IMG/VR virus record: IMGVR_UViG_3300048851_000073
Coordinates: 1 to 62,907 of that record
DNA: 62,907 nt
Strand: one strand, 5' to 3'
Source: a virus
Taxonomy: Duplodnaviria > Caudoviricetes
Positions within the stretch are counted from its first letter, which is position 1, and every line of letters begins with the position of its first letter. Shown piece after piece: positions 10,107-57,030 of the stretch. Position numbers and translations under genes: made by a program. The notes below the pieces were generated by a model. The model searched no databases and was not told where the DNA came from. It saw nothing but the letters and a program-made list of their open reading frames with translations.

Positions 10107-10345
10107 TAAAATCTAGCCACTTCCTTCTCATGTTTGATGATGAGCGAGTTCAGCTGTGCAACTTCGACCAGCGATAGCGAGTGGCCCTTAGTGCGTTTGC
10201 GTGGGACCTTCACTCCGGCCTTACGCATCTGTTTAATCCGGGCAGCCAACGTCTGTCCTGAGATACCCAGCGTCTTAGCTGCATCTGCTGTGGTTTCGCT
10301 GCGTAGGTATGTTACGAGAGTTTCTCGGTAGTCGACAGCCTTCAT
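10106..10345 (-). CDS. HTH DNA-binding protein
   Basis: TADAAKTLGISGQTLAARIKQMR; start moved to MKAVDY. Confidence 0.65.
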   Translation of the reverse strand: MKAVDYRETLVTYLRSETTADAAKTLGISGQTLAARIKQMRKAGVKVPRKRTKGHSLSLVEVAQLNSLIIKHEKEVARF

Positions 10346-10890
10346 CACGCAGCCTTCTTCGCGGGTCGACCCACCTTCTTCGCTACAGTCCTCTTCGCTG
10401 GCTTCTGCGCCTTGAACGCTTCCCACTGATCTAGCTCGGCTTGAGTTAGGTATGGGGGAGTGACGGGGAAGACTTCGACGAACCAAGTTGGCTCTTTCTC
10501 GACGCTGTCGCGATCTAGGTTGCAGTCGTCATCTTCGATCCCTACGCTTCGTCGTGACTCAGGATACTTGAAATAATCGGTCGTAATCATTTTATACTCT
10601 TGATCGCCGTCGTCACATGCCTCTTGAAAGAGTGCACCTTTGCGGATGTCAGGTAGATCCTTTAGTAGTTTGTATGTCTTGCGTGCCATTGGTGCACCTC
10701 CTTCATCTATTAGGTCAAAGTAAATATAATCTAGTGTAAACTCGCCGCCTTTTCCATTTGCTCGTATCGCTTTGAAGTAGTCTTTCGCGACCCGCGTTAC
10801 GCGTCCTCGCCAACCTGCCTGAGTTATCCCATACTTAGCGGTTGCTGCGGCTGTACCGACGATCTGATCGCCGACTTTAAACTTGCTCAT
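10345..10890 (-). CDS. Hypothetical phage protein
   Basis: Coupled ORF; basic C-terminal tail. Confidence 0.6.
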   Translation of the reverse strand: MSKFKVGDQIVGTAAATAKYGITQAGWRGRVTRVAKDYFKAIRANGKGGEFTLDYIYFDLIDEGGAPMARKTYKLLKDLPDIRKGALFQEACDDGDQEYKMITTDYFKYPESRRSVGIEDDDCNLDRDSVEKEPTWFVEVFPVTPPYLTQAELDQWEAFKAQKPAKRTVAKKVGRPAKKAA

Positions 10891-11102
10891 CTCTCGCCTT
10901 CCTCCGACTTCTTACTTCGTCTACTCGCTGCCCCACCCTTTTTGCCCGCTAGTCTGCGTAGCTCTGGTGCCATGGCAGCGAAACCCTTAGGTGTCGCGTT
11001 TGGAGCAGACCCACCGAGCTTTCCGATCACCCGGTAAAAGTCTGGATTCTTCGCTAAGTTCTTAGCAGCAGCGCGCTTGCCTCCCTCTACTGTTCCACTC
11101 AT
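10887..11102 (-). CDS. KGG-motif (general stress protein-like) small protein
   Basis: GGKRAAAKNLAKNPDFYRVIGKLGG...GFAA...LAGKKGGAASRR. Confidence 0.75.
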   Translation of the reverse strand: MSGTVEGGKRAAAKNLAKNPDFYRVIGKLGGSAPNATPKGFAAMAPELRRLAGKKGGAASRRSKKSEEGER

Positions 11103-11105
11103 GCT

Positions 11106-11525
11106 TTACCTCCGATCCTTCCTGAGTGGGCGCATGCCCTTTAATTTGTTCAGCACGCGGGTAGCAACAGCCTTTCGACTGCGTGCAGCTCGCCGTGCTC
11201 TGGCGTCCGCCACGGTGCGGCGCTGCTGTTCCTCGGCGACCCATTCGTGGGTTCCCTTCGACTCTTTACGGAGCGGCTTGAAGTGTTCATCCCAGAAGGT
11301 GTCCCAAGTTTTGGCGTTCGTCTTACTCGACTTCTGCATGCGCTCGTCAAAGTACTTTTTGAGCTGAGCTAGTTCCTCGACGGTCGCGTACTGGATGGGT
11401 TTGCCCATCGGCCGCTGTTGGGGGATGCCCTGGGGTCTAGCGACTGCCTCGGTTGAGTTCGTCGTCTTACGTGGCCGGCCTCTGCGGGCTGGCGGTTGGG
11501 TTGGTTGTTGTGGCTTGTCTGCCAT
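11106..11525 (-). CDS. Hypothetical basic protein with AT-hook-like RRGRPRK
   Basis: SD AAGGA; RGRP motif. Confidence 0.55.
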   Translation of the reverse strand: MADKPQQPTQPPARRGRPRKTTNSTEAVARPQGIPQQRPMGKPIQYATVEELAQLKKYFDERMQKSSKTNAKTWDTFWDEHFKPLRKESKGTHEWVAEEQQRRTVADARARRAARSRKAVATRVLNKLKGMRPLRKDRR

Positions 11526-11551
11526 GTAAATCCTTGGAGCAAAGCTCCGTC

Positions 11552-11776
11552 TTAATTACTAGTAAGGAGTCCGTTGAGCGAACCACCAAGTGCGAAGTCC
11601 AACTGCTGACAGCTGTGACACATACCTGTGGGTTCTAGCTCTCGTGGGTTGAGGCACGCCTTGCATGTCCCGAAGACCGTGAACTGCTCTGCGTGGAGCG
11701 CGTCCAGGGCTTCGGCTTCCATCTCCTGGGCGAAGTAGTCCTGGTCCCATGGGGTGAACTCGTATTCGAGGCTCAT
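11552..11776 (-). CDS. Small CxxC..CxxC protein
   Basis: CKAC...CHSC. Confidence 0.55.
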   Translation of the reverse strand: MSLEYEFTPWDQDYFAQEMEAEALDALHAEQFTVFGTCKACLNPRELEPTGMCHSCQQLDFALGGSLNGLLTSN

Positions 11777-12171
11777 GAGGCGGTCTCCAGGAGGTCGGGG
11801 TTTTCGTAGATGTTGCCGATGACTTCAAACCCAGGCGTACCCCAGAGCGCGTCGCTCAGGAGATAATCGCTATCCATGTCTGTGTCGTCCGGCGTGGCTA
11901 GATCGAATACCGCCCCAGCATCGTTCCAACAGACGGTGTACTGAGCACCGAGAATCTTCCCGATGTCACCCTCGTATATCTCCACACCGTTCTTGTCTTT
12001 GAGGCCGGTGAATTGCATGTAGATTGCGTCGTCGTAGACCTCGACCACGTGAGTTTCATCGTTATTCCAGACACCAGTGACGAGCAGCTCGTCCTGGAGG
12101 TTGATGGCGCGCATGTCGAACATCAACTCGCGATGGGGCACCCATGCTCTGAACTTGATCACCCGACTCAT
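11773..12171 (-). CDS. YopX family protein
   Basis: IKFRAW, MQFTGLKDKNGVEIYEGDI, EVIGNIYENPDLL. Confidence 0.93.
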   Translation of the reverse strand: MSRVIKFRAWVPHRELMFDMRAINLQDELLVTGVWNNDETHVVEVYDDAIYMQFTGLKDKNGVEIYEGDIGKILGAQYTVCWNDAGAVFDLATPDDTDMDSDYLLSDALWGTPGFEVIGNIYENPDLLETAS

Positions 12172-13007
12172 AAGTCATCACTCCCAAGCGCCTTCTGCAT
12201 CGCTTTGATCCCTGCGATCACTGACTCGTTAGTGTCCAGTGCCTTGATCCGTGCATCGATAGCTCGCGGCTCGATCCCGTCTGCTTCCATTAGGGAGCGA
12301 AGCAGTGCGACATTGCCCTGGTCTAAATCGGCAGCCGGTTTCTCTGGTGGGGTATCGACTACCTCACCCCCATCTGCCTTCGCTGGCTCAGGTGGGGGCG
12401 TAGCGGCGTCTGTAGACGGCCTACCATCAGCAAGCTTCTTCTCCATCGCCTTGATGGCGTTAGACACCTTCTCCTCGGTGTTGAGGGTCTTGAGCTTTGC
12501 GTTGATCGCTCTCGGCTCAATGCCGGCCTCAACCATCAGCTCGCGTAACCGCTCCATGTCTTCGTCCACTTCTTCAGCGTCGAAGTCAGGATCTTTGGTG
12601 TCGTCGATGGCAAACAGGTTCTGAAGTGCGTACTTCTTGGCGTAGCTCCCGGTCTTGCCTGTCACCTGCGCGGTGTCGAGGATGGCGCTGCCAGACTTCG
12701 ACAGCTCGACTTCGTTCTCCCAGGCTGAGGCTTCAGCGCTGTGGACTTCCTCTGGCTTCGCTGTGTTGATGACGGTCGCGGTTGCTGTGACGTAGTTCCG
12801 TCCATTCAGCTCGATCATGCGATCAGTGGTGAACAGGTAGAGGCCGTACTTGCGACAGACCGGTCGATAGGCTTTGAGTATCTGCTCCGCGGAACGGGCC
12901 TTGCCGAACTTGCCGCTAATCTCTCGCGGCGCGACGGCTTGTGCCTGAACCTTGAGTAGGAGCTGGTAGATGTTACCTTCCGCTACTTCCTTGTCTTGTT
13001 TTGCCAT
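12168..13007 (-). CDS. ERF-family ssDNA annealing protein with duplicated C-terminal domain
   Basis: AQVTGKTGSYAKKYALQNLFAIDDTKDPD; start moved to MAKQDK. Confidence 0.85.
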   Translation of the reverse strand: MAKQDKEVAEGNIYQLLLKVQAQAVAPREISGKFGKARSAEQILKAYRPVCRKYGLYLFTTDRMIELNGRNYVTATATVINTAKPEEVHSAEASAWENEVELSKSGSAILDTAQVTGKTGSYAKKYALQNLFAIDDTKDPDFDAEEVDEDMERLRELMVEAGIEPRAINAKLKTLNTEEKVSNAIKAMEKKLADGRPSTDAATPPPEPAKADGGEVVDTPPEKPAADLDQGNVALLRSLMEADGIEPRAIDARIKALDTNESVIAGIKAMQKALGSDDL

Positions 13008-13230
13008 TGCTTGATTCCTTATTAAGTTGTTTGACTCTGTACCCCTGGATGTCCTGGTCCTCACGTACGAGTGTTTGTATCACTAGTGAGCGGTTCATGT
13101 CGGGGTACTGTTTCTTCTGCGCCTCTACATATGCGTCGAGGGCTTCTAAGTCGACCTTCGTGAGAGTCACTGTTATGCGTGGAAGTATCTTCCCGCGGAC
13201 TAAATGAATCTTTATGAAGTTCTTTGGCAT
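12973..13230 (-). CDS. Ribbon-helix-helix regulator
   Basis: RITVTLTKVDLEALDAYV...NRSLVIQTLV; first gene after P2. Confidence 0.6.
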   Translation of the reverse strand: MPKNFIKIHLVRGKILPRITVTLTKVDLEALDAYVEAQKKQYPDMNRSLVIQTLVREDQDIQGYRVKQLNKESSNGKTRQGSSGR

Positions 13231-13435: not shown

Positions 13436-14272
13436 ATGGACCCTGTTCTAATCCCACCGCAAAGCACTGCCAATCCTGTTGCTAGCGCCATAGCCAAACT
13501 GGCGCTGACCTGCGTCAATCAACGCCCAGCGGCCGCAACTCAGTACCAGTACCTTAGTGGTATGAAACTTCTTCGCCGTGACGCTGACATACTGACTGGT
13601 GTGGCGGCGTTCGGGGCGCTCACGACGGCCCAGGTCCGCGCCCTGTACTTCCACGAACTCAAGTCTGATTCGCCCTGCACGACAGCACTCCGTCGCCTGG
13701 TCGCGGCAGGGATGCTGGCGAAGGTGACGATCCGGTTCCCCCTGAAGGATCGGGGTGCGCCGATGAGCTGCTTCCAGATCGGGCCGAACGGATGGAAGTC
13801 GTTCTACTCAAAACGGTTCACGCCGATCCGCGATCAGATGAAACTCATGCACACGCTGGCCGTCGCAGACGCGCATATCGCCACCGTCCAGTTGGAACGA
13901 GCGGGAGAGATAGAGATTCTGGAATACGCCAACGAGCCGGACACCTGGATTGAACTCGGTGGATCGGAGCTGCGGCCCGACATGTACCACGATCTGCATC
14001 TGATCAAGGCGAAGCAGAGGGTGGTTTACTGGATTGAGGTCGAGGAATCGAGAAAGTCACAACCGAAGTTAATTAAAAAGCTGCACGCCTATAAGCGCGC
14101 TGAACGCGATTCTGGTCGCTACCCCGGTGACAAGTTCCCGCAAGTGATGGTCTTGGCTACGACACCAGAGAGACTACGAGATATACGTTCAGCGCTGAAG
14201 AAGGCGAAGATGCCTGACGGGTATGTAGAAGTACACATGTTAGAGAGTTATCCACAGTTTTTACTGAGGTAA
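13436..14272 (+). CDS. Replication-relaxation (Replic_Relax-like) protein
   Basis: RDADIL..FGALTTAQVRALYF wHTH, HTLAVAD, LRPD, WIEVE PD-(D/E)xK-like core; true start may be 13562. Confidence 0.8.
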   Translation: MDPVLIPPQSTANPVASAIAKLALTCVNQRPAAATQYQYLSGMKLLRRDADILTGVAAFGALTTAQVRALYFHELKSDSPCTTALRRLVAAGMLAKVTIRFPLKDRGAPMSCFQIGPNGWKSFYSKRFTPIRDQMKLMHTLAVADAHIATVQLERAGEIEILEYANEPDTWIELGGSELRPDMYHDLHLIKAKQRVVYWIEVEESRKSQPKLIKKLHAYKRAERDSGRYPGDKFPQVMVLATTPERLRDIRSALKKAKMPDGYVEVHMLESYPQFLLR

Positions 14273-16004: not shown

Positions 16005-16703
16005 ATGCAGTTACTAACAAAGGTACTCGTCGGGTCTAGGCTTCACGGGCTTGAGAACGAACAGTCGGATTACGACTACCGAGGCATCCACATGCACGAT
16101 CTGCAGGATGTGTTGAGTCCATTCAAGACGCTCAAGAAAACCACATGGATCGAAGGCGACGAAGATAACACTAGCTACGAGCTAGCCGACTTCTGCAGGA
16201 GTGCGGTTCATGGTAACGCCACGATCCTTGAAGTCTTCTTTAGTGACCAGGTCATTGCCACGTCACCGGTAGCTGATGAGATGCGCGCTAACTGGCGGAA
16301 GTTTATCGACACCGACAAGGTGGTCATGGCGAGCCGGGGCTACGCAGGTAACCAACTCAACAAGATGCAGCTGTTCGATGACATCGGAGTTAAGGACCAA
16401 CGTCGGACGAGCAAGTTTGCCATCTCGTACTGTCGAGTTCTGTGGCAATGCTCTGAGTTTCTACGTACTGGAGAGTTCCCATGCCGGATCGCTGATCTCG
16501 ATCTCAGACAGTTTCTACTGAAGCTGAAGGCCGGATGGGACGACAAGTACATCCCAGAGTGCACCGAAAGGTTCGCCGCCCTCCAGGCCGACGTGACGAG
16601 TGAATGGAAAACGGCGGACAAAATCAAACCAGACATCGCATGGATCGAGGAGTTTATTTACAAAAGTTATACAGGAGTTCCAATGAATGAAAGTCGCTTA
16701 TAG
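16005..16703 (+). CDS. Pol-beta superfamily nucleotidyltransferase (RlaP/YcgL-like)
   Basis: VGSRLHGL..SDYDYRGI (GS..DxD), GNATILEVFFS. Confidence 0.85.
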   Translation: MQLLTKVLVGSRLHGLENEQSDYDYRGIHMHDLQDVLSPFKTLKKTTWIEGDEDNTSYELADFCRSAVHGNATILEVFFSDQVIATSPVADEMRANWRKFIDTDKVVMASRGYAGNQLNKMQLFDDIGVKDQRRTSKFAISYCRVLWQCSEFLRTGEFPCRIADLDLRQFLLKLKAGWDDKYIPECTERFAALQADVTSEWKTADKIKPDIAWIEEFIYKSYTGVPMNESRL

Positions 16704-17736: not shown

Positions 17737-18577
17737 GCTACTCATGCTCAAAGGATTACCCGGTAGCGGGAAGAGCACCTACGCTCGTCAACTGGTCGAG
17801 AAGAACCAGTACACCCGCGTCAACAAAGACGATCTACGAGCCATGCTGCACAACAGCACCCACTCTAAGGCCAAGGAAGCGGTTGTGTTGGGTGTCCGGG
17901 ACTACGTGGTCCACGATGCGCTCAGCTCGGGACGCAATGTCGTCGTGGACGACACGAACTTTGCCCCTGCACACGAACTACGGCTACGAGAGATCGCCAA
18001 GGAACACGGTGCCCAGTTCGAGTACAAGCTGATCGATACTCCACTGGACGTTTGCATTGCCCAGGATCTGAAGCGTCCCAACAGTGTGGGACAGAAGGTG
18101 ATCTTGCAGATGTACAACCAGTACTTGAAGCCGGCACCCGTTGAGGAACCCAAGATCGATCCTGCTCTGCCGACTGCAGTCATCTGCGACATCGACGGAA
18201 CTCTTGCTCACATGGTCAACCGAGGGCCGTACGATACCTCAAAGTACCTGGACGATGAGAAAGACGACACGATCCACCTTGTATTTGCCCGGCTGTCGGA
18301 AGGCGCGACAAGGATCATCTGCTCCGGCCGATCCGCCGAGTTCAAGGCGGACACCGCTCGGTGGCTGTATAACCATGGAATTACGTATGACCTGCTACTG
18401 ATGCGTCCAGCGGGTGACACTCGCAAAGACAGCATCATCAAACGCGAACTATACGAAGACCACATCAAGGGTAAGTACAACATCCGCGTTGTCCTAGACG
18501 ATCGCAACCAGGTAGTAGACATGTGGCGCAACGAACTAGGTCTTAAGGTCCTACAGGTAGCAGAGGGTGACTTTTAA
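17729..18577 (+). CDS. pseT: Polynucleotide 5'-kinase/3'-phosphatase (T4 PseT-like)
   Basis: GLPGSGKST P-loop, DDLR, DIDGTL HAD motif, SGR, DDR. Confidence 0.93.
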   Translation: MPKLLMLKGLPGSGKSTYARQLVEKNQYTRVNKDDLRAMLHNSTHSKAKEAVVLGVRDYVVHDALSSGRNVVVDDTNFAPAHELRLREIAKEHGAQFEYKLIDTPLDVCIAQDLKRPNSVGQKVILQMYNQYLKPAPVEEPKIDPALPTAVICDIDGTLAHMVNRGPYDTSKYLDDEKDDTIHLVFARLSEGATRIICSGRSAEFKADTARWLYNHGITYDLLLMRPAGDTRKDSIIKRELYEDHIKGKYNIRVVLDDRNQVVDMWRNELGLKVLQVAEGDF

Positions 18578-46069: not shown

Positions 46070-46070
46070 C

Positions 46071-49174: not shown

Positions 49175-51271
49175 GTGGCAAACAAGATCAATATCGTCAT
49201 CTCAGCGCAAGACAAAGCCTCGGCGGAACTGAAGAAGACCGAAGCAGGTCTGAAAGCATTCTCGCAAGGCGCGGATGAGTCTTCCCGTGCTTCGCGTGCG
49301 CTCGGGGTTGCCACGGATGTCGCCAAGGTCGGGCTACTTGCGACGGGCGCTGCAGCAGTGGCCGCAGGCAAGTTTGCCGTTACTGCCGCTGCCGGGTATG
49401 AGCAGTCCCTCAACATCTTTCGTTCGGTTTCCGGCGCGACTGCCGAGCAGATGGTTGCCGTGGGGGCTCGTTCGCGTGAGTTAGGGAAAGACCTATCACT
49501 GCCAGGAGTCAGCGCAGCTGACGCGGCGCTTGCCATGGTTGAGCTTGCCAAAGCCGGCCTCTCGGTCAACGACACTATGGCTGCGTCTAAAGGTGTTCTG
49601 TCACTCGCCAAAGCCGGTCAAATGGAGACGGCACAGGCAGCAGAGATAGCCGCCAATGCTCTCAATGCATTCGGTCTCAGGGGTAGCGAAGCGTCACGTG
49701 TGGCCGACATCTTGGCTGCAGCCGCCAATGCCTCGAGCGCGGACGTCACCGACCTGGCGCTGAGCCTCCAAATGTCGAGTGCTGGTGCTGCAGCAGTGAA
49801 GGTGCCGATCGACAATCTCGTCGCCTCCATCGGACTGATGGCGAACAACGGCATCAAGGGCTCAGACGCCGGTACGTCGCTCAAGACGATGTTCATGAAC
49901 CTCATCCCGCAAACCGACAAGCAGATCGCCTCATTCAGAAAGCTCAACCTCGACTTCTACAACGCCAAGGGCAATTTCGTCGGGATGCGCGAAATGATCC
50001 GCCAGCTCGAAGTTGGGACACGCAACCTCACCGATGAGCAGAAGGCCCAGCACATCGAGACCATCTTCGGTTCCGATTCCTCTCGTGCGGCGAACATCCT
50101 TCTGAAAGAGGGCGTCAAAGGCTATGACGAGATGACCAGAGCGGTCAACAAGAACGGCGCGGCAACTGCGCTGGCCGCTGCTCAGAACGCTGGCTTCAAG
50201 GGTGCGCTCGACGGGCTGAAGAGCACTATCGAGACGATCGCAATCGATGTCGGCATGAAAATGCTGCCAGGACTGACTGCACTAGCGACCAGCATCAATT
50301 CGCAGATCGAACCGTCGTTCAACCGGCTCGTGGCTGGAGGAAAGGCGGTGTGGGGCGTCGTCACCACAATCGCGGACGAGGTGGCCTTCCGACTCGGTCC
50401 CAAGTTCGAGTTTCTGTGGACGATCGTCTCCACGAACCTGATTCCAGCCTTCGCCCAGCTATATACCGCTGTTCTGCCGCTCCTCCCTGTGATCGGTGGA
50501 ACTCTGCTGGTTGCTGTAGGTCTCCTGGCAGACGGAGTGAATCTAGTGACGTTCGCGTTCTCTGGCTTGGTCGCACTGGCTGCAGTCTTGCTCCAGGGTC
50601 TCAGTGACGGCAACCCGATCGTGTGGACGCTGGCAGGCGCGTTCACCGGCCTTGGGGTTGCGATGGGCATCCACGCGATCATCAACACCGTGACGGCCGC
50701 GATGGCGGTGATGTCGGCGGTGACGATCCCTGCGTTGATCGCGAAAGTTGCGGCGCTCAATCTGATGGTCATGACGCCAATGGTCATGCCTGCCATCGCA
50801 ATTGGTGCTGCGCTCGCGGCCATCGCAGCGGTGTGGAACGCCTACAACGAGATGATGTCCGCCATCGAGGGGGCGAAGGCCTCACAAGCACGAAGCAACA
50901 AGGCCGGTGCTGACCTTCGGGCAACCGCCGATGCGTCGTTCAAGTCCGGCAAGATCGATCAGAAAGAGAAGGACCGCCTGTACAGCGTTTCGTTCAAGGC
51001 ACTCGGTACCAACTACGCAGAAGGTGGCGCGACCGTCGTAGGTGAGCACGGGCCTGAAATCGTGAATATGCCTCGTGGTGCACAGGTTACGCAGGCCTAC
51101 CGCAGTCGAAATGAACTCGGACAGGGGAGCGGCGGTGGAGTCACAGTACACATCACCGGTCCGGTTTCGTTCACCGACAACGCAGCGATCGACTACTTTG
51201 CGCAGCGTTTGAACCAGTCTGCTCGGCTGGCACGATCCGGAATGAGTAGCACGGTAGGAGCTGCAGCGTAA
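49175..51271 (+). CDS. Tape measure protein (TP901-type core)
   Basis: ELAKAGLS, GIKGSDAGTSLK, IFGSD, ALGTNYAEGG..VGEHGPE. Confidence 0.93.
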   Translation: MANKINIVISAQDKASAELKKTEAGLKAFSQGADESSRASRALGVATDVAKVGLLATGAAAVAAGKFAVTAAAGYEQSLNIFRSVSGATAEQMVAVGARSRELGKDLSLPGVSAADAALAMVELAKAGLSVNDTMAASKGVLSLAKAGQMETAQAAEIAANALNAFGLRGSEASRVADILAAAANASSADVTDLALSLQMSSAGAAAVKVPIDNLVASIGLMANNGIKGSDAGTSLKTMFMNLIPQTDKQIASFRKLNLDFYNAKGNFVGMREMIRQLEVGTRNLTDEQKAQHIETIFGSDSSRAANILLKEGVKGYDEMTRAVNKNGAATALAAAQNAGFKGALDGLKSTIETIAIDVGMKMLPGLTALATSINSQIEPSFNRLVAGGKAVWGVVTTIADEVAFRLGPKFEFLWTIVSTNLIPAFAQLYTAVLPLLPVIGGTLLVAVGLLADGVNLVTFAFSGLVALAAVLLQGLSDGNPIVWTLAGAFTGLGVAMGIHAIINTVTAAMAVMSAVTIPALIAKVAALNLMVMTPMVMPAIAIGAALAAIAAVWNAYNEMMSAIEGAKASQARSNKAGADLRATADASFKSGKIDQKEKDRLYSVSFKALGTNYAEGGATVVGEHGPEIVNMPRGAQVTQAYRSRNELGQGSGGGVTVHITGPVSFTDNAAIDYFAQRLNQSARLARSGMSSTVGAAA

Positions 51272-52044
51272 TGGCCGCTACTGCAGTTGCTTACGGCACT
51301 CTGAACATGCAGACAGAGAAGATCTGGGCGACGACCACGGATGTCTTCTCGGCCCCTGAGAACAACGTCCAGACAGATAACCTGGCGCAGTCAGACGGCG
51401 CGATATTCGTCCGTAGCTCGGTGAGGGCAAAGAGCTTTTCAGTCGCCGGCATCATCCGTGGAGACAGTATCGCTGACACGGACAGCTTGATCGATCAGTT
51501 CAAGATGGGACTTCGCCTGGCCCAGCAAAACTTCGACATCGCTTACGCCGGTTCGGTTCGAAGGTATGTCGCCAGTCCGCAGAACATCATGATCACCCGC
51601 GAACGCGGCCAGGCGACTGCTGGTTGGTCGGTACAGTTCATCTGCGCCAGTCCAGTTGGCATGGATACGAACTCATCCACCCTGCTCGCGGCAACGCCTG
51701 TCACCACTTCAACTGCGTCCATCCCGATCGCAGTGGGCGGTACGTACCAGGCAGAGCCGTACATCAAGGTGACTCTCACAGCAGTGACAGGCGGTACCTC
51801 GAAGACAATCACCATCACCAACACAACGACACTCCGCGGTATCAGAATCATCCGCACCTGGTCACCCGGCGATGTCCTGGAAATCGACAGCTTCAACAAG
51901 ACCGTCTACGTGAACAGTCAGGTCGTCATCTTCGACGGCCAGTTCCCGAAGTGGGATGTCGGATCACAGAACATCGGGTATCTCGACGACTTCACAACCC
52001 GCACGGCAAGCATCACCGCTGAGTACACCAGGCGGTGGTTGTAG
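51271..52044 (+). CDS. Distal tail protein (Dit-like)
   Basis: Follows TMP; GDVLEIDSFNKTVYVN. Confidence 0.75.
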   Translation: MAATAVAYGTLNMQTEKIWATTTDVFSAPENNVQTDNLAQSDGAIFVRSSVRAKSFSVAGIIRGDSIADTDSLIDQFKMGLRLAQQNFDIAYAGSVRRYVASPQNIMITRERGQATAGWSVQFICASPVGMDTNSSTLLAATPVTTSTASIPIAVGGTYQAEPYIKVTLTAVTGGTSKTITITNTTTLRGIRIIRTWSPGDVLEIDSFNKTVYVNSQVVIFDGQFPKWDVGSQNIGYLDDFTTRTASITAEYTRRWL

Positions 52045-52053
52045 GGGCGCGTC

Positions 52054-53931
52054 ATGCCGACCATAGTTGCCTACCCACTTAGCTCAAAAGACGACGCTCA
52101 GAAGCGCTTTGACAACAGTGCCGACTACAACGACTCATCCGGCACTCTGGTACTTGGTAAGAAGTTCGACGTCTCAGGACAGTCGATGACTGTAGGCATC
52201 CGGTTCCCCAACATCTCCATCCCACCCGGCGCCACGATCACGTCCGCCACACTCGCGTTGGTATCTCAGTACGAGAACCCAAGTACCGTCTCGCTTCGTG
52301 TCTTCGCCGAGAACACCGATAGTTCACTGCCCTTCTCCAGTTCAAACGATCCGGCGGACCGCCCACTCACCACTGCGTTCACTAACTGGGTGCCTGCAGC
52401 CGGTAGCAACTGGGTGGGGAGCGGTGTTTACAACAGCACCCCCGACATCGGCCCGCTGATCCAAGCTGTGGTCAACCGAGCCGGGTGGACTGCCGGCAAT
52501 GCGATCACGCTGATCATCAAGGACAACGGCTCGACGAATTACCAGGGACACTCAGCGGCGTCTGTTGATTCGGGGCCAACCACTGCTCCGAAACTGACGG
52601 TGACCTACTCAGTCGTAGCGCCTGTCACGGTGCAAACTTTCCAAACCGCGCCGAAGGAGTACCTGTACAAGGTCTCAAAACCAGACGGCACGTACGTCGG
52701 GGTCTGGAGCGATGTGACCGACGATCCCCAGTGGACTCAGCAGATCAATACCCCGGGGACGACAACCACTGTGTTTCTCGGACGTTCAGCGGACAACATG
52801 ATCGAGCGACGCGAGGCTTGGGTTGATCAGACCAACACTCGGTACGCCGATCAATCCGGCGAGGAGTACATGTTCGTCTCGCGCACCTCAAACACGGTCG
52901 GTCCCGATACCGACGTCGAGTACGGACTGAACGTCGACATCTATGCGGTGTACGGCGGGTACGAGCCCCTGGTTGATCAAAACGGGGTGCCTTACGCCGA
53001 CCAGACCGGTGACTCATACGTCGTTGCGACCGGCGCACCACTCGGCCAGCGCGTGTTCAGCGGAAAGATCAAAAGTTACAAGGCTGTCTACAAGGACAGG
53101 GAGGGCGTCGAGGTCTTGTTGGTGTCCCACGGCATCGAGCTGACAGAAGGCGAGCCGATCAAATCTGGCACCAGCACGACGGTTACGTACGCGACCACTC
53201 CGCTCGACACGATCGTCAAATCAATCCTTGACACCAATCCAGGCAAGATCACATACAACGCGGGATCGATTGACTACACGGGTGTTTCACCAACCTTGAA
53301 GTTCCAACTCAACACGAAGCTCGAAGGCATCAAGAGTGCCTTCACCCAGACACCTGAGGGTTTCTATTGGTACGTCGACATCGGCGAGAACGTGCTCTAC
53401 ATGAAACAGAACCAGCCCATCGTGAACCACGTCTTCATCAAGGGACGTCATCTGAGCGAAGTGAACATCGAGCGCTCGGGGGAGAACCTACGCAACCGGA
53501 TCTACTTTGTGGGCGGCGACACAGGCAGCGGTGTCCTCTACAAGGTCTACGAAGATGCTGCGGCCATCGCGGATTTTGGGCTGGCTACCTACCGAATTAC
53601 CGACCGACGCTTCACAGTGGCAGCCCATGCCCAGCGATACGCGCAGAAGGTTCTCTCGCGCTATGCACGCCCGGTCTACACCTCGACGATCACAGTGCCG
53701 TCCAGCGTGTACAACATCGAAGACATCAAGCTGGGGCACAACATCGCCTTCCGCAACTTCGGGAACTTCATCGATACACAGGTACTGCAGGCGGTCTCGA
53801 TCAGCTACACCCCATACGCCGTAACGATTCAACTCGGTGAAGTGCTCGATGATCAGAAGTCGATCATCGCTGACCTCGACGAGGGGCTGTCGAACGAACA
53901 ATACCAAGATATTCCAAACGCTCCATCGTAA
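52054..53931 (+). CDS. Tail tip/hub protein with N-terminal DNRLRE-like domain
   Basis: IRFPNISIPPGATITSATL..PKLTVTY; NRIYFVGG; position. Confidence 0.7.
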   Translation: MPTIVAYPLSSKDDAQKRFDNSADYNDSSGTLVLGKKFDVSGQSMTVGIRFPNISIPPGATITSATLALVSQYENPSTVSLRVFAENTDSSLPFSSSNDPADRPLTTAFTNWVPAAGSNWVGSGVYNSTPDIGPLIQAVVNRAGWTAGNAITLIIKDNGSTNYQGHSAASVDSGPTTAPKLTVTYSVVAPVTVQTFQTAPKEYLYKVSKPDGTYVGVWSDVTDDPQWTQQINTPGTTTTVFLGRSADNMIERREAWVDQTNTRYADQSGEEYMFVSRTSNTVGPDTDVEYGLNVDIYAVYGGYEPLVDQNGVPYADQTGDSYVVATGAPLGQRVFSGKIKSYKAVYKDREGVEVLLVSHGIELTEGEPIKSGTSTTVTYATTPLDTIVKSILDTNPGKITYNAGSIDYTGVSPTLKFQLNTKLEGIKSAFTQTPEGFYWYVDIGENVLYMKQNQPIVNHVFIKGRHLSEVNIERSGENLRNRIYFVGGDTGSGVLYKVYEDAAAIADFGLATYRITDRRFTVAAHAQRYAQKVLSRYARPVYTSTITVPSSVYNIEDIKLGHNIAFRNFGNFIDTQVLQAVSISYTPYAVTIQLGEVLDDQKSIIADLDEGLSNEQYQDIPNAPS

Positions 53932-54610: not shown

Positions 54611-55387
54611 ATGAAACAGATCTACCAACCTAACCTCGGGGTAGCAGCCACGCCGGGCTACTGCCTGGCCTATGTCGACGACGCTGGCAATGCTCCTAAT
54701 CGGCGTCCAAGCGCGAAGGCCGCGTTTGAAGTCGAACAAGCGGCAGGAAGAATCCGAGGCGGTGACAGCCCGTCTGGAATATGGGTCGTCGGGTTCCTGG
54801 AGTTCACCAGAGGAAGCTATGTATATCACGGTACGACCCACTTCATGCGAGATCTCGGACACGTCTTTTTCATGAAGAACAATGGGAACGGCACCTATGA
54901 CCTTCGGGATAGTGAAATTGCATCCGGCGTGAAGAAGAGTAGATATAACAGCGTCAACGATATCGTTTCATGGTTTGGAATTTACAGTCCTAGATACATC
55001 GGTTGGAGCACTAATTGCGACGGGAGAACGTACGCAGAGGAGGAAGAAGATATGGCAAAGACATCACTAGAGCACGAGCGCATCCTAGCGTGGATGTCGG
55101 GACAAAATGGGTTCTTTGGTAGCAAGAACGCGTTGGTGGGTGAGATAGACGGCGATCTGAATCAAAACCACGTCGGCACAGAAGCTCTTAAATCACTCAC
55201 TACGTGGTTTCATTCGCCTGCTATGCAGAAGTATATATTCGAGACGCTTCCGGCCATGTCAAAGAAGACCGAACTTGCGGACAGGCTCCTCGAAGAGAAT
55301 GCGGCACTTAAAAAGCAGCTCGCCGAGTCCCGGGTGGCCGATGACTTCGTAGAAGTAACAGATAAACTATTTTATAAAAAGAAATAA
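54611..55387 (+). CDS. Endolysin candidate (CHAP/NlpC-P60-like Cys-His peptidase)
   Basis: GYCLAYVDD..SAK, GHV, YIGWS; position before membrane genes. Confidence 0.7.
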   Translation: MKQIYQPNLGVAATPGYCLAYVDDAGNAPNRRPSAKAAFEVEQAAGRIRGGDSPSGIWVVGFLEFTRGSYVYHGTTHFMRDLGHVFFMKNNGNGTYDLRDSEIASGVKKSRYNSVNDIVSWFGIYSPRYIGWSTNCDGRTYAEEEEDMAKTSLEHERILAWMSGQNGFFGSKNALVGEIDGDLNQNHVGTEALKSLTTWFHSPAMQKYIFETLPAMSKKTELADRLLEENAALKKQLAESRVADDFVEVTDKLFYKKK

Positions 55388-55491
55388 CCCGCAATGGCTG
55401 CCCGACTGTATAGCGCTGACAAGGCACCCAATCAGTACAAAGGGAGTAACGCCCTCGGTTTTGAATGCGCTCAACAAGCCGGAGTTGCTAT

Positions 55492-55746
55492 ATGACCGAA
55501 GATTTACCAACATACCTACTTTCACAAGGCGTACTAGGTGTTGCCTGTCTAGTTCTGGGGTATGTTTGCGTTCGGCTATACAGGGAGAACAAAGAACTCC
55601 AAGGTGAGATTCGGCAGCTCTACAAAGATCAGCTCGCTGACAACAAAGAAGTTGCGAAAGATGTCACAGAAGTTTTGCGAGGAAATTCACAGGCAAACCT
55701 GGCTCTTGCTGAGAAGATAGAAGCAGTACAAGGACGCCGACAATGA
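55492..55746 (+). CDS. Holin-like membrane protein
   Basis: QGVLGVACLVL TM plus coiled coil. Confidence 0.55.
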   Translation: MTEDLPTYLLSQGVLGVACLVLGYVCVRLYRENKELQGEIRQLYKDQLADNKEVAKDVTEVLRGNSQANLALAEKIEAVQGRRQ

Positions 55747-55955
55747 AATGGTTCAGCAAGAACAAAACCAAGCTCGACAGGGAACAAGACAAAATCAAGG
55801 TCGAGGTGACCGTGTCGAAAGAAGCGACGAAGCGCGAGATCGAGAAGGCTAAGGCTGCTAATCAGGCGCTCGCCGAACTTCTCGAGGCTAATCACTTCAC
55901 TGTCCAGATCTACCGCACCGCCCAGCTCGGCGCGAAGAAGGCGGGTAAGGCATGA
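55743..55955 (+). CDS. Hypothetical protein (lysis region)
   Basis: ATGA coupling. Confidence 0.55.
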   Translation: MKWFSKNKTKLDREQDKIKVEVTVSKEATKREIEKAKAANQALAELLEANHFTVQIYRTAQLGAKKAGKA

Positions 55956-56320
55956 TCCCTATCGACCTCTACGCCTGGATATTGCTCGTCAGTCGCGTCG
56001 TCATGGTAGCGCTGACCATTGACATCATTCGCAAACAAATCAGTGGGTTCGCAGTTAAGGCGACGGGCAGGCTTCGGTTACTCCGACGGTCTTTGTTCGC
56101 GGCGGCCGTCATTTTGCTCGTTGGAAGTGTGTACCCAATTGTCTTTGACATCATCACGATCTTTGGAGAGACGGGGCGAGCCGAGTCGGTACGGATCGAC
56201 AGCTTCATCTACATGATGAACGCGAACATTACCTGGCTAGCGGTGAGCTTCGCTCTGTGGCTCACCTACTGGTTTGCAGACACTGCAGAAGATGCGGTGA
56301 TAAGCGTCGACAAGCGATGA
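55952..56320 (+). CDS. 3-TM membrane protein
   Basis: Three hydrophobic segments. Confidence 0.6.
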   Translation: MIPIDLYAWILLVSRVVMVALTIDIIRKQISGFAVKATGRLRLLRRSLFAAAVILLVGSVYPIVFDIITIFGETGRAESVRIDSFIYMMNANITWLAVSFALWLTYWFADTAEDAVISVDKR

Positions 56321-56326
56321 CCTGCC

Positions 56327-56800
56327 ATGGAGTACATCACTGACTTTCACGAAGCCGAGCTGAATGCCGAGTCGGTTCTCCGGTGCTGGGGCTTTGCTGA
56401 CGCGAAGGCTACGACTGGGGGAGCAGATGGTGGGATAGATGTCAGGTCCAAGGCTGCCCTCGCGCAGGTCAAGTGGAAGGGCGGCGCTGCAGGCAGGCCG
56501 GAGATCCAGAACTTGGTTGGCGCGTCAGGTAATGACCGTCACAAGCAGCTGTTCTTCTTCGCAGCCTCCAGCTTCACGAAGACTGCCGTGGAGTATGCGA
56601 ACCAAGTTGATGTCCGACTCTTCATCTACGACCCGCTAGGCAAAGTGGAGCCAGCCAACGAACGCGCGCTGCAGTTCATGAAGACACTCGGCTCTAGTGC
56701 GCGCCAGCCAGCATCGAAGATCCCTTGGACTCACTACGTTGTGTACTTGGTGGCCGCACTGCTCTGCTTCCTTGCTATGACGATTCCGTTCATAACTTGA
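56327..56800 (+). CDS. Mrr-like nuclease domain with C-terminal TM
   Basis: GADGGIDV..AQVK, FTKTAVEYA. Confidence 0.8.
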   Translation: MEYITDFHEAELNAESVLRCWGFADAKATTGGADGGIDVRSKAALAQVKWKGGAAGRPEIQNLVGASGNDRHKQLFFFAASSFTKTAVEYANQVDVRLFIYDPLGKVEPANERALQFMKTLGSSARQPASKIPWTHYVVYLVAALLCFLAMTIPFIT

Positions 56801-56853
56801 CTGTCACGATCACAAAGCGCATATTGAAACCACAACTTAATGAGGAACATCAC

Positions 56854-57030
56854 ATGAGCAACTTTTTCGAAGACATCTTCAGCATCACGAGAACTAAGAA
56901 ATTTTGGGTGGCGGTCGCAGGCGCACTCGTCTCGTACGCACTCGCTACGTTCGGGCAGAGCAACGAACTTACTTTGTTCACTGGACTGCTCACGGCGCTT
57001 GGCGTCTACGGCGTCAGCAACGAGAGTTGA
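56854..57030 (+). CDS. Holin (2-TM)
   Basis: KKFWVAVAGA..LTALGVYGVSN; SD GAGG. Confidence 0.7.
   Translation: MSNFFEDIFSITRTKKFWVAVAGALVSYALATFGQSNELTLFTGLLTALGVYGVSNES

What the first reader, a model, noticed from the sequence alone, without database searches (positions are those of the whole stretch)
10345..57030. Phage core looks non-actinobacterial, possibly Saccharibacteria (CPR)-like, inside a Mycobacteriales chromosome
Seen: AT-rich promoters and intergenic DNA, an AT-richer gene block (22.4-25 kb), TTATCCACA-type boxes, YopX, ERF, a CHAP-like lysin and no recognisable LysB. From memory, unverified: the KGG protein (10887-11102, GGKRAAAKNLAKNPDFY..IG..GG) and the YIGRREAVG-type tail tube resemble proteins common in Saccharibacteria genomes and prophages. 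In contrast int, lsr2, the lipoprotein and the morons look actinobacterial. Known: Saccharibacteria are epibionts of Actinobacteria. Inference: a phage lineage that crossed between epibiont and host and was then fitted with actinobacterial parts.
Basis: inference. Interest (0 to 1): 0.8.

Follow-up and report, generated by a model that had tools for sequence, protein, structure and literature searches.

The report
Actinobacterial prophage carrying Saccharibacteria-type gene
This is a complete 62-kb prophage of a soil actinobacterium whose packaging, head and tail genes have their closest named relatives in other actinobacteria, not in Saccharibacteria, although one small gene it carries is otherwise a typical chromosomal gene of Saccharibacteria.

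Summary
The window is one integrated temperate siphovirus. The host flank matches Williamsia (Mycobacteriales).

The core is actinobacterial:
- TerL is 92% identical to a cluster from Rhodococcus erythropolis and R. qingshengii.
- The capsid protein is 90% and the tail tube 81% identical to Rhodococcus proteins.
- Left arm, core and right arm are colinear in prophages of Pseudarthrobacter, Arthrobacter and R. aetherivorans. The last sits at the same bcp-tRNA-Val site, with a 78% identical integrase.

The AT-rich look is real, but it is a lineage trait. Relatives are 53-54% GC islands in 64-68% GC chromosomes.

The KGG-like gene belongs to a family that lies beside rpsA-infB on Saccharibacteria contigs. 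Its only match among 401 sampled Actinomycetota genomes lay inside the R. aetherivorans relative of this prophage. A low-GC (45-48%) phage group of unknown host shares the head-tail module at 25-47% identity. One complete member also carries KGG.

Verdict: the core-origin claim is not supported; a link to Saccharibacteria through this gene is real; a host crossing is unproven.

The parts
3..485 (+). Host flank: Bcp-type peroxiredoxin (AhpC/TSA)
   Evidence: PF00578, E 7.1e-33. It sits in a 90%-identity cluster with peroxiredoxins named Williamsia sp. R60 and Williamsia sp. D3.
581..655 (+). tRNA-Val(TAC). Its 3' part, 604-656, is the attL core
   Evidence: ARAGORN. 53-bp exact direct repeat with 62693-62745.
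675..1925 (-). Tyrosine integrase
   Evidence: PF00589, E 2.8e-18. 78% identical over 392 aa to the integrase beside tRNA-Val in R. aetherivorans G004.
2920..3603 (-). DUF3846 protein, left arm
   Evidence: PF12957. 33-38% identical in the G001, G003 and G004 prophages.
7992..9092 (-). AAA ATPase (IetA-like by PADLOC)
   Evidence: PF00004, E 1.6e-26. PADLOC IetA, E 1.9e-30. 78% identical in the Arthrobacter prophage.
9453..10106 (-). Small serine recombinase (resolvase)
   Evidence: PF00239, E 1.2e-31. 55% identical in G003.
10887..11102 (-). KGG-like small protein, 71 aa
   Evidence: Sequence. No Pfam hit itself. 57%, 41% and 52% identical in the G001, G003 and G004 prophages. 54-62% identical to genes on metagenome contigs, many of them beside rpsA/infB. 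Nearest Atlas clusters are Saccharimonadota and Uroviricota.
11773..12171 (-). YopX
   Evidence: PF09643, E 7.8e-25.
12168..13064 (-). ERF single-strand annealing protein
   Evidence: PF04404, E 2.5e-22.
13436..14272 (+). Replication-relaxation family protein
   Evidence: PF13814, E 5.2e-13. phrog_9381, 'replication initiation by nicking'. 30-35% identical in relatives.
16005..18577 (+). RNA-repair cassette: RlaP nucleotidyltransferase, Rnl1-type ligase, Pnkp
   Evidence: PF10127, PF09511, and PF25109 with PF13671. 81%, 76% and 69% identical in the Pseudarthrobacter prophage.
22761..24883 (+). AT-richer block of seven small ORFs of unknown function
   Evidence: GC 0.42-0.49. 0 PHROG families for the 10 ORFs sent: these seven, 22411-22764 and two ORFs at 14355-14786.
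26970..27953 (-). GT51 transglycosylase moron
   Evidence: PF00912, E 5.9e-29. 37-44% identical in G001 and G003.
28844..30602 (+). Terminase small (28844-29437) and large (29394-30602) subunits
   Evidence: PF16677; PF17288 and PF03237. TerL is 92% identical to representative P0209, whose cluster is named Rhodococcus. It is 82% identical in an Actinomycetota MAG.
32898..35029 (+). Portal (32898-34241) and MuF-like head protein (34298-35029)
   Evidence: PF04860, E 1.8e-47; PF04233. 48-52% and 41-50% identical in Actinomycetota prophages.
35018..42577 (.). Insert in the head module: 1065-aa beta-helix protein (36129-39326) and neighbours
   Evidence: PF12708 and PF13229. MuF and the protease are adjacent in the relatives G001-G004.
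42684..44730 (+). Prohead protease (42684-43604) and HK97-type major capsid protein (ORF 43423-44730; the form on record is 364 aa)
   Evidence: PHROGs. 90% identical to Rhodococcus sp. IEGM 1351, 73% to Dietzia maris, 72% to Mycolicibacterium neoaurum. Tree.
45491..46849 (+). Head-tail adaptor and tail completion proteins
   Evidence: phrog_442 and phrog_5.
47474..48442 (+). Tail tube protein (PF18906 on its relatives)
   Evidence: 88 homologues, of which all 16 organism-named ones are Actinomycetota; the best named is Rhodococcus at 81%.
49175..53931 (+). Tape measure, Dit and Tal-like tail tip proteins
   Evidence: PHROG tape-measure families. PF22768. PF06605.
54611..55387 (+). Candidate lysin; fold not established
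   Evidence: phrog_12298 only. No Pfam hit, no PDB hit and no usable fold. 38-46% identical in low-GC phages.
56327..56800 (+). Mrr-type restriction endonuclease domain protein
   Evidence: PF04471. PADLOC mREase_IV.
57153..57521 (+). Lsr2-like nucleoid-associated protein
   Evidence: phrog_1223, E 1.5e-33. 32-39% identical at the same place in G001-G003.
58232..60529 (-). 765-aa coupling-protein-like ATPase, right arm
   Evidence: PF10412, E 1.4e-6. phrog_5156, E 2.6e-39. 32-37% identical over 84-99% of its length in G001-G003.
62693..62745 (+). attR core, a copy of the tRNA-Val 3' end
   Evidence: The contig loose ends in two runs equal the attR and attB paths.

Best explanation
The window is one complete temperate siphovirus prophage of about 62 kb. 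A tyrosine integrase placed it in the 3' end of tRNA-Val(TAC), beside bcp, in a Williamsia-like member of the Mycobacteriales. It belongs to a conserved lineage of prophages of Actinomycetota that has no isolated representative in the phage collection searched.

Its left arm (integrase to ERF), early region, head-tail core and right arm (Lsr2 and a 765-aa ATPase) have travelled together inside actinobacteria. The low GC, about 55% against roughly 64-68% in the chromosomes around its relatives, is a trait of the whole lineage. It is not a sign that the core came from elsewhere.

Inferred, not shown: the AT-rich promoters together with the phage's own Lsr2-like protein serve lysogeny control by xenogeneic silencing, as CgpS does for prophage CGP3 in Corynebacterium glutamicum.

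The one clearly Saccharibacteria-type component is the small KGG-like gene. It is old within the lineage.
For: ELEMENT AND HOST
- 53-bp att repeat; integrase next to attL; CheckV completeness 100.
- Bcp sits in a 90% cluster with Williamsia.
- The bcp-tRNA-Val pair is conserved in the 6 best loci kept from a scan of 401 Mycobacteriales genomes. Their local GC is 0.63-0.71.

CORE
- TerL representative at 92% identity. Six of its 11 cluster members carry a Rhodococcus name, and a seventh carries only a MetaClust label.
- Capsid: 90% Rhodococcus, 73% Dietzia, 72% Mycolicibacterium.
- Tail tube: 16 of 16 organism-named hits are Actinomycetota.
- Capsid tree: the window lies in a 22-row subclade (SH-aLRT 99) with three named Mycobacteriales rows. 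That subclade lies in a 77-row clade (100) whose 8 organism-labelled rows besides the window are all Actinomycetota.

WHOLE ARCHITECTURE
- The prophages of Pseudarthrobacter sp. H2 and Arthrobacter sp. Hiyo8 share DUF3846, KGG, YopX, Replic_Relax, GT51, TerS, portal, MuF, protease, capsid, tube, tape measure, Lsr2 and the 765-aa ATPase.
- The AAA ATPase (78%) and the resolvase are shared with the Arthrobacter prophage only. The RNA-repair cassette is shared with the Pseudarthrobacter prophage only.
- These prophages have GC 0.533 and 0.537, in flanks of 0.676 and 0.637.
- R. aetherivorans carries Bcp, tRNA-Val, a 78% identical integrase, DUF3846, KGG and Replic_Relax in that order. GC drops at the tRNA.

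ASSEMBLY
- A 20,195-nt contig covers 627-20000 without a difference.
- A second study's contigs bridge 10345.

LSR2 READING
- Lsr2-encoding actinophages are enriched among temperate phages and have lower GC (PMC8612146, passages read).
Against: - No close relative among 50,697 phage records. The capsid is at most about 33% identical, TerL and portal at most about 30%, and the tail tube has no match. It therefore does not nest in a described actinophage cluster.
- TerL was not found at E<=1e-20 in 401 sampled Mycobacteriales genomes.
- The genome scan that found no Patescibacteria used two peptide patterns. Six of the 8 low-GC relatives' capsids lack both. The scan could therefore have missed such prophages.
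- The KGG gene is Saccharibacteria-type.
- A low-GC group of unknown host shares the head-tail module.
- The Lsr2-silencing step rests on analogy only.
Confidence: 0.85

Rival explanations
1. The head-tail-packaging core comes from a Saccharibacteria phage lineage and was later fitted with actinobacterial parts (integrase, lsr2, morons).
For: - The KGG gene is Saccharibacteria-type.
- The element is about 10 GC points below the Mycobacteriales chromosomes sampled at the same locus.
- No isolated actinophage is close.
- Low-GC phages of unknown host share the head-tail module at 25-47% identity.
Against: - The nearest core relatives are 81-92% identical and named Rhodococcus.
- Core and arms are colinear in four Actinomycetota genomes.
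- Core and arms have equal GC.
- Core genes have GC3 of 0.62-0.83. The six Saccharibacteria genes measured beside KGG have 0.44-0.64.
- The low-GC group's capsid sits inside the clade whose named members are all Actinomycetota. It is nearer to Rathayibacter (52%) than to the window (44%).
Confidence: 0.04
2. The KGG resemblance is not shared descent. It is convergence of a short, repetitive, Gly/Lys/Ala-rich motif protein.
For: - The protein is 71 aa and built of KGG-type repeats.
- It fails the Pfam model.
- The family tree is unresolved: 73 of 135 forks are open, and the actinophage rows do not group.
Against: - 54-62% identity over residues 1-53 to 1-71, including the non-repeat N-terminus, in 80 of 80 kept loci.
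- Length and order of motifs are conserved.
- Atlas score 0.93 with 192 of 256 shared features.
Confidence: 0.12
3. The contig is a chimeric metagenome assembly that joins an actinobacterial flank, or the arms, to an unrelated phage.
For: - The window comes from a metagenome-derived virus record.
- No contig bridges the 53-bp att repeat.
Against: - The same order of arms and core is found in complete genomes of Pseudarthrobacter and Arthrobacter, and in R. aetherivorans at the same att site.
- One contig covers 627-20000 with no difference.
- A run from a second study holds 0.95 of the words of 1-3000, and its contigs bridge 10345.
- The loose ends at 604 and 656 equal window 62663-62692 and 62746-62775.
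Confidence: 0.01
4. The low GC reflects a recent arrival from a lower-GC host that has not yet ameliorated. It is not a maintained lineage trait.
For: The AT-richer ORFan blocks and the KGG gene have GC3 of about 0.43-0.53, below their neighbours.
Against: - Relatives at only 30-55% protein identity, in hosts of two orders, all sit at GC 0.53-0.57 in chromosomes of 0.64-0.73.
- A recent arrival would not give such stable values over that much divergence.
Confidence: 0.05

Closest known systems
CGP3 prophage of Corynebacterium glutamicum with its Lsr2-like silencer CgpS (PMC5137423 and PMC7002338; search listing and start of abstracts seen only)
   Same: An AT-rich prophage in a higher-GC actinobacterium that encodes its own Lsr2-like protein. 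CgpS binds regions with a drop in the GC profile and keeps the prophage silent.
   Different: No binding or induction data here. This Lsr2 sits at the right end of an intact, apparently complete siphovirus (CheckV 100). No sequence comparison with CgpS was made.
Lsr2-encoding temperate actinobacteriophages (Sharma et al. 2021, PMC8612146; passages read)
   Same: Temperate, carrying Lsr2, and lower in GC than other actinophages.
   Different: No isolated phage in the 50,697-record collection is close: structural proteins are at most about 33% identical and the tail tube has no match. The lineage is known here only as prophages and metagenome contigs.
Prophages of Pseudarthrobacter sp. H2, Arthrobacter sp. 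Hiyo8 and Rhodococcus aetherivorans DSM 44752, and the R. erythropolis / Rhodococcus sp. IEGM 1351 proteins
   Same: Same gene order from left arm to right arm, the same low GC, and KGG, Lsr2 and the 765-aa ATPase. R. aetherivorans has the same bcp-tRNA-Val site and a 78% identical integrase. TerL is 92%, the capsid 90% and the tube 81% identical to Rhodococcus proteins.
   Different: The window has a 7.5-kb insert (the beta-helix protein and others) between MuF and the protease. The Micrococcaceae relatives gave no match to the window's integrase.
Xhp1, a prophage of Schaalia odontolytica that binds and weakly infects the Saccharibacteria epibiont TM7x (PMC13578794; abstract read)
   Same: An actinobacterial prophage with a direct physical route to a Saccharibacteria cell. 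That is the kind of contact that could move a gene such as KGG.
   Different: Nothing shows that this phage meets Saccharibacteria.
KGG family (Pfam PF10685). YciG and GsiB as members, and their description as general stress proteins, are recalled and come from no call.
   Same: Short, hydrophilic, with repeated KGG-type motifs. The relative P0090 carries PF10685. The nearest Atlas clusters are 77-92% PF10685.
   Different: The window's protein does not reach the Pfam model. Its subfamily is found here beside rpsA-infB on Saccharibacteria contigs and in phages, with one match among 401 sampled Actinomycetota genomes. That match lies inside the R. aetherivorans relative of this prophage.

Membership tests
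Temperate tailed phage (HK97-type siphovirus prophage) | Terminase, portal, HK97-fold capsid, tail tube and tape measure in one module | tested here: met
   Pfam and PHROG hits.
Temperate tailed phage (HK97-type siphovirus prophage) | Integrase beside an att repeat that duplicates the target | tested here: met
   Tyrosine integrase at 675-1925. 53-bp repeat of the tRNA-Val 3' end at both ends.
Phage of Actinomycetota | Integrated in an actinobacterial chromosome | tested here: met
   The flanking Bcp clusters at 90% with Williamsia. bcp-tRNA-Val synteny in Mycobacteriales. The same site is occupied in R. aetherivorans.
Phage of Actinomycetota | The closest relatives of the hallmark proteins lie in Actinomycetota | tested here: met
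   TerL 92%, capsid 90% and tube 81% identical to Rhodococcus proteins. 16 of 16 named tube hits are Actinomycetota.
Described actinobacteriophage cluster (isolated phages) | Nucleotide or high protein similarity to a sequenced isolate | tested here: not met
   Megablast of 28001-53000 gave no match. Capsid, TerL and portal are below about 34% identity and the tube has no match.
Saccharibacteria (CPR) phage lineage | Hallmark proteins with relatives in Saccharibacteria genomes or prophages | tested here: inconclusive
   No Patescibacteria label among the 16 named tube hits, the 10 named capsid hits or the 80 genome loci. The genome scan's patterns miss most low-GC relatives, and no Patescibacteria genomes could be searched directly.
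Saccharibacteria (CPR) phage lineage | Composition and codon use like the host's | tested here: not met
   Core genes have GC3 of 0.62-0.83. The six Saccharibacteria genes measured have 0.44-0.64.
Saccharibacteria-type small KGG protein | Full-length similarity to the gene that lies beside rpsA-infB in Saccharibacteria | tested here: met
   54-62% identity. 47 of 80 loci have the S1/IF-2 synteny. Of 9 neighbour clusters found, 8 carry Saccharibacteria names.
Pfam KGG (PF10685) | A score over the family's cut-off | tested here: not met
   0 families for the protein at E<=0.01. 0 six-frame matches at E<=1. The relative P0090 carries PF10685.
Mycolata phage with LysB | A cutinase-type mycolylarabinogalactan esterase | tested here: not met
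   PF01083 gives 0 six-frame matches at E<=1.
CHAP endolysin | A CHAP domain | tested here: not met
   PF05257 gives 0 six-frame matches at E<=1. The candidate has no Pfam or PDB hit, and its fold was unusable.
CgpS-like xenogeneic silencing of a prophage | A phage-encoded Lsr2-like protein together with AT-rich target regions | tested here: met
   Lsr2 hit. Intergenic GC falls to 0.39-0.43 at 13231-13435, 18578-18798 and elsewhere.
CgpS-like xenogeneic silencing of a prophage | Binding to those regions, and induction when silencing is lost | not testable with these tools
   Needs ChIP-seq and a knock-out or a dominant-negative in a lysogen.

The most novel reading that the evidence does not exclude
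The phage lineage to which this prophage belongs spans both partners of the Saccharibacteria-actinobacteria episymbiosis. On this reading, its low-GC sister phages infect Saccharibacteria. These are 26-38 kb, some with terminal repeats, and share the head-tail module at 25-47% identity; some also share the lysin, and one complete member carries KGG.

The KGG gene would have moved between the Saccharibacteria chromosome, where it sits beside rpsA-infB, and these phages. The route would be the kind of cross-partner adsorption or injection reported for prophage Xhp1 and TM7x.
Probability: 0.2. Interest if true: 0.75.

Novelty: new member of a known kind. Interest (0 to 1): 0.4.

Why it matters
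It removes an attractive but wrong inference. AT-richness and unfamiliar structural genes in an actinobacterial prophage do not mean a foreign, CPR-derived core. Here they mark a widespread, uncultured, low-GC lineage of temperate actinophages that carry their own Lsr2.

It also tests a hunch that first-stage readers of this scan used on at least five other windows. The small 'MSGTV/MAGTK..GG..FY..IG..GG' KGG protein really is typical of Saccharibacteria chromosomes. Its presence in a phage does not identify a Saccharibacteria host, because it sits in prophages of Williamsia-like, Rhodococcus, Pseudarthrobacter and Arthrobacter genomes.

The positive residue is a concrete, testable lead for gene flow between actinophages and Saccharibacteria or their phages. 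It arrives just as the first experimental contact between an actinobacterial prophage and a CPR cell has been reported (PMC13578794).

Tried and rejected
DEAD ENDS
- Relatives of the window's genome could not be drawn, because it is a virus record. /data/genome.fa is the window only.
The contexts of P0090, P0091, the R. erythropolis TerL and the Rhodococcus capsid could not be read.
- Atlas look-up of the portal-MuF protein of a KGG-bearing low-GC phage gave only viral clusters and no host.
- The three 'provirus' KGG phage records have no tRNA, no att repeat and no visible host flank.
- ORFs of ten low-GC phages shared essentially only KGG with 499 kb of Saccharibacteria loci. Seven ORFs matched: six are KGG-type by place or extent, and the seventh matched one locus at the site of that locus's KGG match.
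- 0 of 50 KGG phage records carry WhiB. 0 of 12 low-GC core relatives carry Lsr2. Absence of these markers does not name a host.
- Pfam on 10 ORFs of the complete low-GC phage G452 gave RecT, PD-(D/E)XK, an intein-bearing AAA ATPase, DUF7192 and Vut_1. None names a host.
- Its capsid has no close relative in GenBank phages. Among 401 sampled Actinomycetota genomes it matched only 2, at 46% and 32%.
- Metagenome contigs cannot be searched as genomes.
- The KGG tree had 141 rows. Sequences were cut to their first 75 residues. Rows under 55 aa and duplicates were dropped, 141 of 165 being kept. It is too short to give an origin or a direction.
- The capsid tree is the quick tree, because the careful search did not finish. 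Its rows were 11 named proteins (the window among them), 16 translations from loci, and unnamed hits P0094-P0165 of at least 330 aa. Weaker unnamed hits were left out.
- The single-sequence fold of the candidate lysin was unusable.
- PHROGs found nothing for the AT-rich ORFs.
- A composition-based host guess for the low-GC phages was considered and rejected. This lineage sits 10-14 GC points below its known hosts, so composition misleads here.
- Contigs of both runs stop inside the 53-bp att repeat, so neither junction is bridged.
- Papers: one search for KGG with Saccharibacteria found 1 paper, unrelated by title and not read. I found no description of this gene family in Saccharibacteria.
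- The list of IMG/VR scaffolds predicted to infect Saccharibacteria (Table S7 of PMC10746230, kept outside the paper) could not be seen. It may name the host of the low-GC contigs.

Full report
WHAT IS THERE

The window is a virus record of 62,907 bases, and it is all that is held of its genome. Overall GC is 0.550. A tRNA-Val(TAC) lies at 581-655. Its last 53 bases (604-656) recur exactly at 62693-62745. A tyrosine integrase (675-1925, minus strand) abuts the first copy.

The integrated element therefore runs from about 604 to 62745. CheckV rates the record 100% complete.

The only host DNA is a Bcp-type peroxiredoxin gene (3-485), the tRNA, and 162 bases at the right end. The Bcp protein sits in a 90%-identity cluster with proteins named Williamsia sp. 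R60 and Williamsia sp. D3.

I then scanned 401 sampled species genomes of the order of Rhodococcus aetherivorans with window 1-656. 365 matched, the best at 74% identity. All 6 best loci kept from that scan have bcp followed by tRNA-Val, in DNA of GC 0.63-0.71.

GENE MAP
- Left arm, minus strand: integrase, DUF3846, AAA ATPase, serine resolvase, the KGG-like 71-aa protein, YopX and ERF.
- Rightward: a replication-relaxation protein; small ORFs; an RNA-repair cassette (RlaP, Rnl1-type ligase, Pnkp); an AT-richer ORFan block; a GT51 transglycosylase.
- Packaging and head: TerS, TerL, portal, MuF; a 7.5-kb insert with a 1065-aa beta-helix protein; prohead protease; HK97-type capsid.
- Tail: connectors, tail tube, tape measure, Dit, Tal.
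- Right end: a lysis region, an Mrr-domain protein, Lsr2, and on the minus strand a 765-aa coupling-protein-like ATPase (phrog_5156).

THE OBSERVATION

- Confirmed: YopX, ERF, Lsr2, the AT-richer block, four exact DnaA boxes within 13.39-18.62 kb, and both quoted peptide motifs.
- No cutinase-type LysB was found.
- 'CHAP-like' was not confirmed by any profile, sequence or fold test.
- The KGG protein itself misses the Pfam model.

IS THE CORE NON-ACTINOBACTERIAL? NO.

Against 50,697 phage records nothing is close. Megablast of 28001-53000 found nothing. The capsid is at most about 33% identical, TerL and portal at most about 30%, and the tail tube has no match at all. This explains why the core looked unfamiliar.

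Against the large protein collections the picture is clear.
- Tail tube: 88 homologues. 16 carry an organism name and all 16 are Actinomycetota. They are Rhodococcus (best 81%), Rathayibacter, Microbacterium, Pseudarthrobacter, Streptomyces, Arthrobacter, Curtobacterium and Cryobacterium.
- Capsid: 117 homologues, 10 with organism names.
  - The four at 49% or more are Rhodococcus sp. IEGM 1351 (90%), Dietzia maris (73%), Mycolicibacterium neoaurum (72%) and Rathayibacter (49%).
  - The other six are at most 34% identical: four Pseudomonadota, one Streptomyces and one Anoxybacillus.
- TerL: of 1.84 billion representatives one is 92% identical, and the next full-length ones are at most 44%.
  - That representative's 90% cluster has 11 members. 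Six are named Rhodococcus (erythropolis, qingshengii, sp. NPDC056516). A seventh carries only a MetaClust label.
- Capsid tree: a quick maximum-likelihood tree of 94 rows puts the window in a 22-row subclade (SH-aLRT 99) with the Rhodococcus, Dietzia and Mycolicibacterium rows.
  - That subclade lies in a 77-row clade (support 100) whose 8 organism-labelled rows besides the window are all Actinomycetota.
  - The 17 rows of the other side of the tree, which include two Actinomycetota-labelled rows among other phyla, lie outside that clade.

THE WHOLE ELEMENT IS ONE ACTINOBACTERIAL LINEAGE

A scan of 185,579 species genomes with a capsid alignment gave 92 relatives, of which 80 were kept. The top four were Pseudarthrobacter sp. 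H2, an Actinomycetota MAG, Arthrobacter sp. Hiyo8 and R. aetherivorans. The rest were at most 33% identical and mostly Alphaproteobacteria. None was labelled Patescibacteria.

I fetched 100 kb around the two complete-genome hits.
- Both are islands of about 52 kb, with GC 0.533 and 0.537, in flanks of 0.676 and 0.637.
  - DUF3846;
  - the AAA ATPase (78%) and the resolvase (Arthrobacter prophage only);
  - KGG (57% and 41%), YopX and the replication-relaxation protein;
  - the RNA-repair cassette (81%, 76% and 69%; Pseudarthrobacter prophage only);
  - GT51;
  - Lsr2 (32-36%) and the 765-aa ATPase (32-37% over 99% of its length in these two).

In R. aetherivorans DSM 44752 the order is Bcp (67%), tRNA-Val(TAC), integrase (78% over 392 aa), DUF3846, KGG (52%), replication-relaxation protein. 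GC falls from 0.66-0.73 to 0.54-0.59 at the tRNA. A relative thus occupies the same site in a named Rhodococcus.

There is no seam. The low GC is a stable trait of a lineage that lives in high-GC actinobacteria of at least two orders.

ASSEMBLY

Two soil-metagenome runs from two studies hold 0.98 and 0.95 of the sampled words of window 1-3000. One of them may be the source.
- In the first, a 20,195-nt contig covers 627-20000 without a difference.
- In the second, contigs cover pieces that include 9932-11454, which bridges 10345.
- Contigs break inside the 53-bp repeat, as a de Bruijn graph must. The loose ends equal window 62663-62692 and 62746-62775.
- This fits an integrated prophage and leaves room for an empty site. 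It does not bridge the junctions.
- The summed depth in the first bin (1-667) is about 63 and 56. The contig laid on the flank at 1-633 in run X1 has depth about 52. The prophage is at about 16 and 7.

The word-indexed search found only two relatives. The Atlas placed the protein nearest to three KGG clusters. Their commonest phyla are Saccharimonadota, Uroviricota and Saccharimonadota (score 0.93, 192 of 256 features).

The 80 kept are 49-62% identical, most of them 54-62%. Of these, 47 of 80 also carry ribosomal protein S1 and/or IF-2 within the locus.

I looked up ten neighbouring proteins from three long contigs (586-808 kb). Nine were on record.
- Eight of those clusters hold members named Candidatus Saccharibacteria, Saccharimonadales or Microsaccharimonas. 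One example is the 30S ribosomal protein S1 of Saccharibacteria bacterium 49-20.
- One of these clusters also holds a member labelled Dongiaceae.
- One cluster has function names only.

So this small protein is a chromosomal gene next to rpsA-infB on the Saccharibacteria contigs examined. In 401 sampled Actinomycetota genomes the same profile matched only R. aetherivorans. That match lies inside the prophage relative.

The gene is also common in viral contigs. 100 relatives were found and 80 kept. Their GC is 0.39-0.53 (median 0.43), and most are about 30 kb. In 25 viral and metagenome loci a YopX gene lies 0.6-6 kb away.

A tree of 141 KGG rows is unresolved and gives no direction.

Two conclusions follow. 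The family link to Saccharibacteria is real. As a clue to a phage's host it fails, because here the gene sits in four actinobacterial prophages.

AN OPEN LEAD: A LOW-GC SISTER GROUP

A tail-tube alignment found 27 viral contigs.
- Sixteen of them have GC 0.49-0.60 and tube identity of 50-74%.
- L276-L279 and L285 have GC 0.45-0.46. They share portal (46-47%), MuF (40-41%), protease (42-44%), capsid (41-45%), connectors (27-37%) and tube (41-42%).
- In L278 and L279 the candidate lysin is shared too, at 38%.
- L282-L284 have GC 0.46-0.48 and share fewer of these genes, at 25-45%.

One member is a complete 38,260-bp genome with terminal repeats. It also carries KGG at 44%. These phages lack WhiB and Lsr2, and none of their other genes names a host.

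The capsid of the complete member was compared.
- It is 67-72% identical to three unnamed rows that form a 5-row clade with L001 inside the 77-row clade.
- It is 52% identical to the Rathayibacter capsid and 44% to the window's.

Six of the 8 capsids of this group lack both peptide patterns used in the genome scan. The absence of Patescibacteria is therefore weak evidence. The host of this group is unknown.

By placement it is a branch within an actinophage radiation, not its root.

Published work makes a cross-partner route conceivable.
- The Schaalia prophage Xhp1 binds TM7x and weakly infects it (PMC13578794; abstract read).
- A Saccharibacteria parasite of the mycolata Gordonia amarae is in culture (PMC11880426; listing seen only).

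HOW IT MOST LIKELY WORKS
- Shown: an intact temperate siphovirus, integrated at tRNA-Val by a tyrosine integrase, with the gene set above.
- Inferred: lysogeny control leans on xenogeneic silencing. The element is AT-rich, with intergenic GC as low as 0.39-0.43 at the divergent early region and other promoter gaps. It carries its own Lsr2.
- Lsr2-encoding actinophages are reported to be mostly temperate and lower in GC (PMC8612146; passages read).
- CgpS, a prophage-encoded Lsr2-like protein, silences prophage CGP3 (PMC5137423 and PMC7002338; listing and start of abstracts seen).
- Another first-stage note on this window saw no CI-type repressor (e1-6268812; not tested here). That would fit.

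VERDICT

The finding's central inference is not supported. The thing is an ordinary kind of object: a temperate actinobacterial prophage from a lineage without isolates.

It has one verified oddity, a Saccharibacteria-type gene that is old in the lineage. It has one unresolved lead, the low-GC sister phages.

Noticed in passing
window 35018-42577: The 1065-aa beta-helix protein and its neighbours (about 7.5 kb, partly on the opposite strand) are an insert. MuF and the prohead protease are adjacent in the relatives in Pseudarthrobacter, Arthrobacter, the Actinomycetota MAG and R. aetherivorans.
   Followed up: partly
L278:3487-5607 and L103:10707-13019: Low-GC relatives encode portal and MuF as one fused ORF (706 aa and 770 aa). 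The Atlas names clusters with both Pfam domains. This bears on the other note, that the window's portal may be joined to MuF by a frameshift at 34200-34300.
   Followed up: no
window 16005-18577: The RlaP, Rnl1-type ligase and Pnkp RNA-repair cassette is conserved at 81%, 76% and 69% in the Pseudarthrobacter sp. H2 prophage. The kinase half is 50% identical in the spring-water phage MW202497.1.
   Followed up: partly
window 7992-9092: The AAA ATPase matches the defence protein IetA in PADLOC (E 1.9e-30). No IetS-like protease partner was recognised next to it.
   Followed up: no
window 58232-60529: The 765-aa coupling-protein-like ATPase (phrog_5156; PADLOC mad8, E 1.3e-12) is conserved at the right end, near Lsr2, in three relatives at 32-37% identity. 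Its function is unknown.
   Followed up: partly
window 13390-18622: The four exact TTATCCACA boxes all lie within 5.3 kb of the early region. With one mismatch allowed the count is not above chance: 13 against 8.5, and 9 of 100 shuffles reach it.
   Followed up: partly
window 1-667 against 668-20000: In two soil metagenome runs the summed depth of the first bin is about 63 and 56, and the flank contig in run X1 has depth about 52, against about 16 and 7 for the prophage. Either most cells with this locus lack the prophage, or several strains share the flank.
   Followed up: no
L184, L192, L204 and 44 further metagenome loci: On Saccharibacteria contigs the small KGG gene keeps a fixed neighbourhood: a 271-aa gene on the opposite strand, then rpsA and infB. 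This holds across contigs of GC 0.42-0.51.
   Followed up: partly
L296:12455-14326 and L296:16689-17330 (record G452): The complete low-GC phage carries an AAA ATPase interrupted by an intein-like Hint domain, and a Vut_1 (YhhQ-type) transporter gene.
   Followed up: no
L085 (MW202497.1): A 42.9-kb spring-water phage shares TerL (28%), a KGG protein (35%, annotated 'small hydrophilic plant seed protein') and the polynucleotide kinase with the window. It is annotated with an rpfB-like gene and a GroEL.
   Followed up: partly
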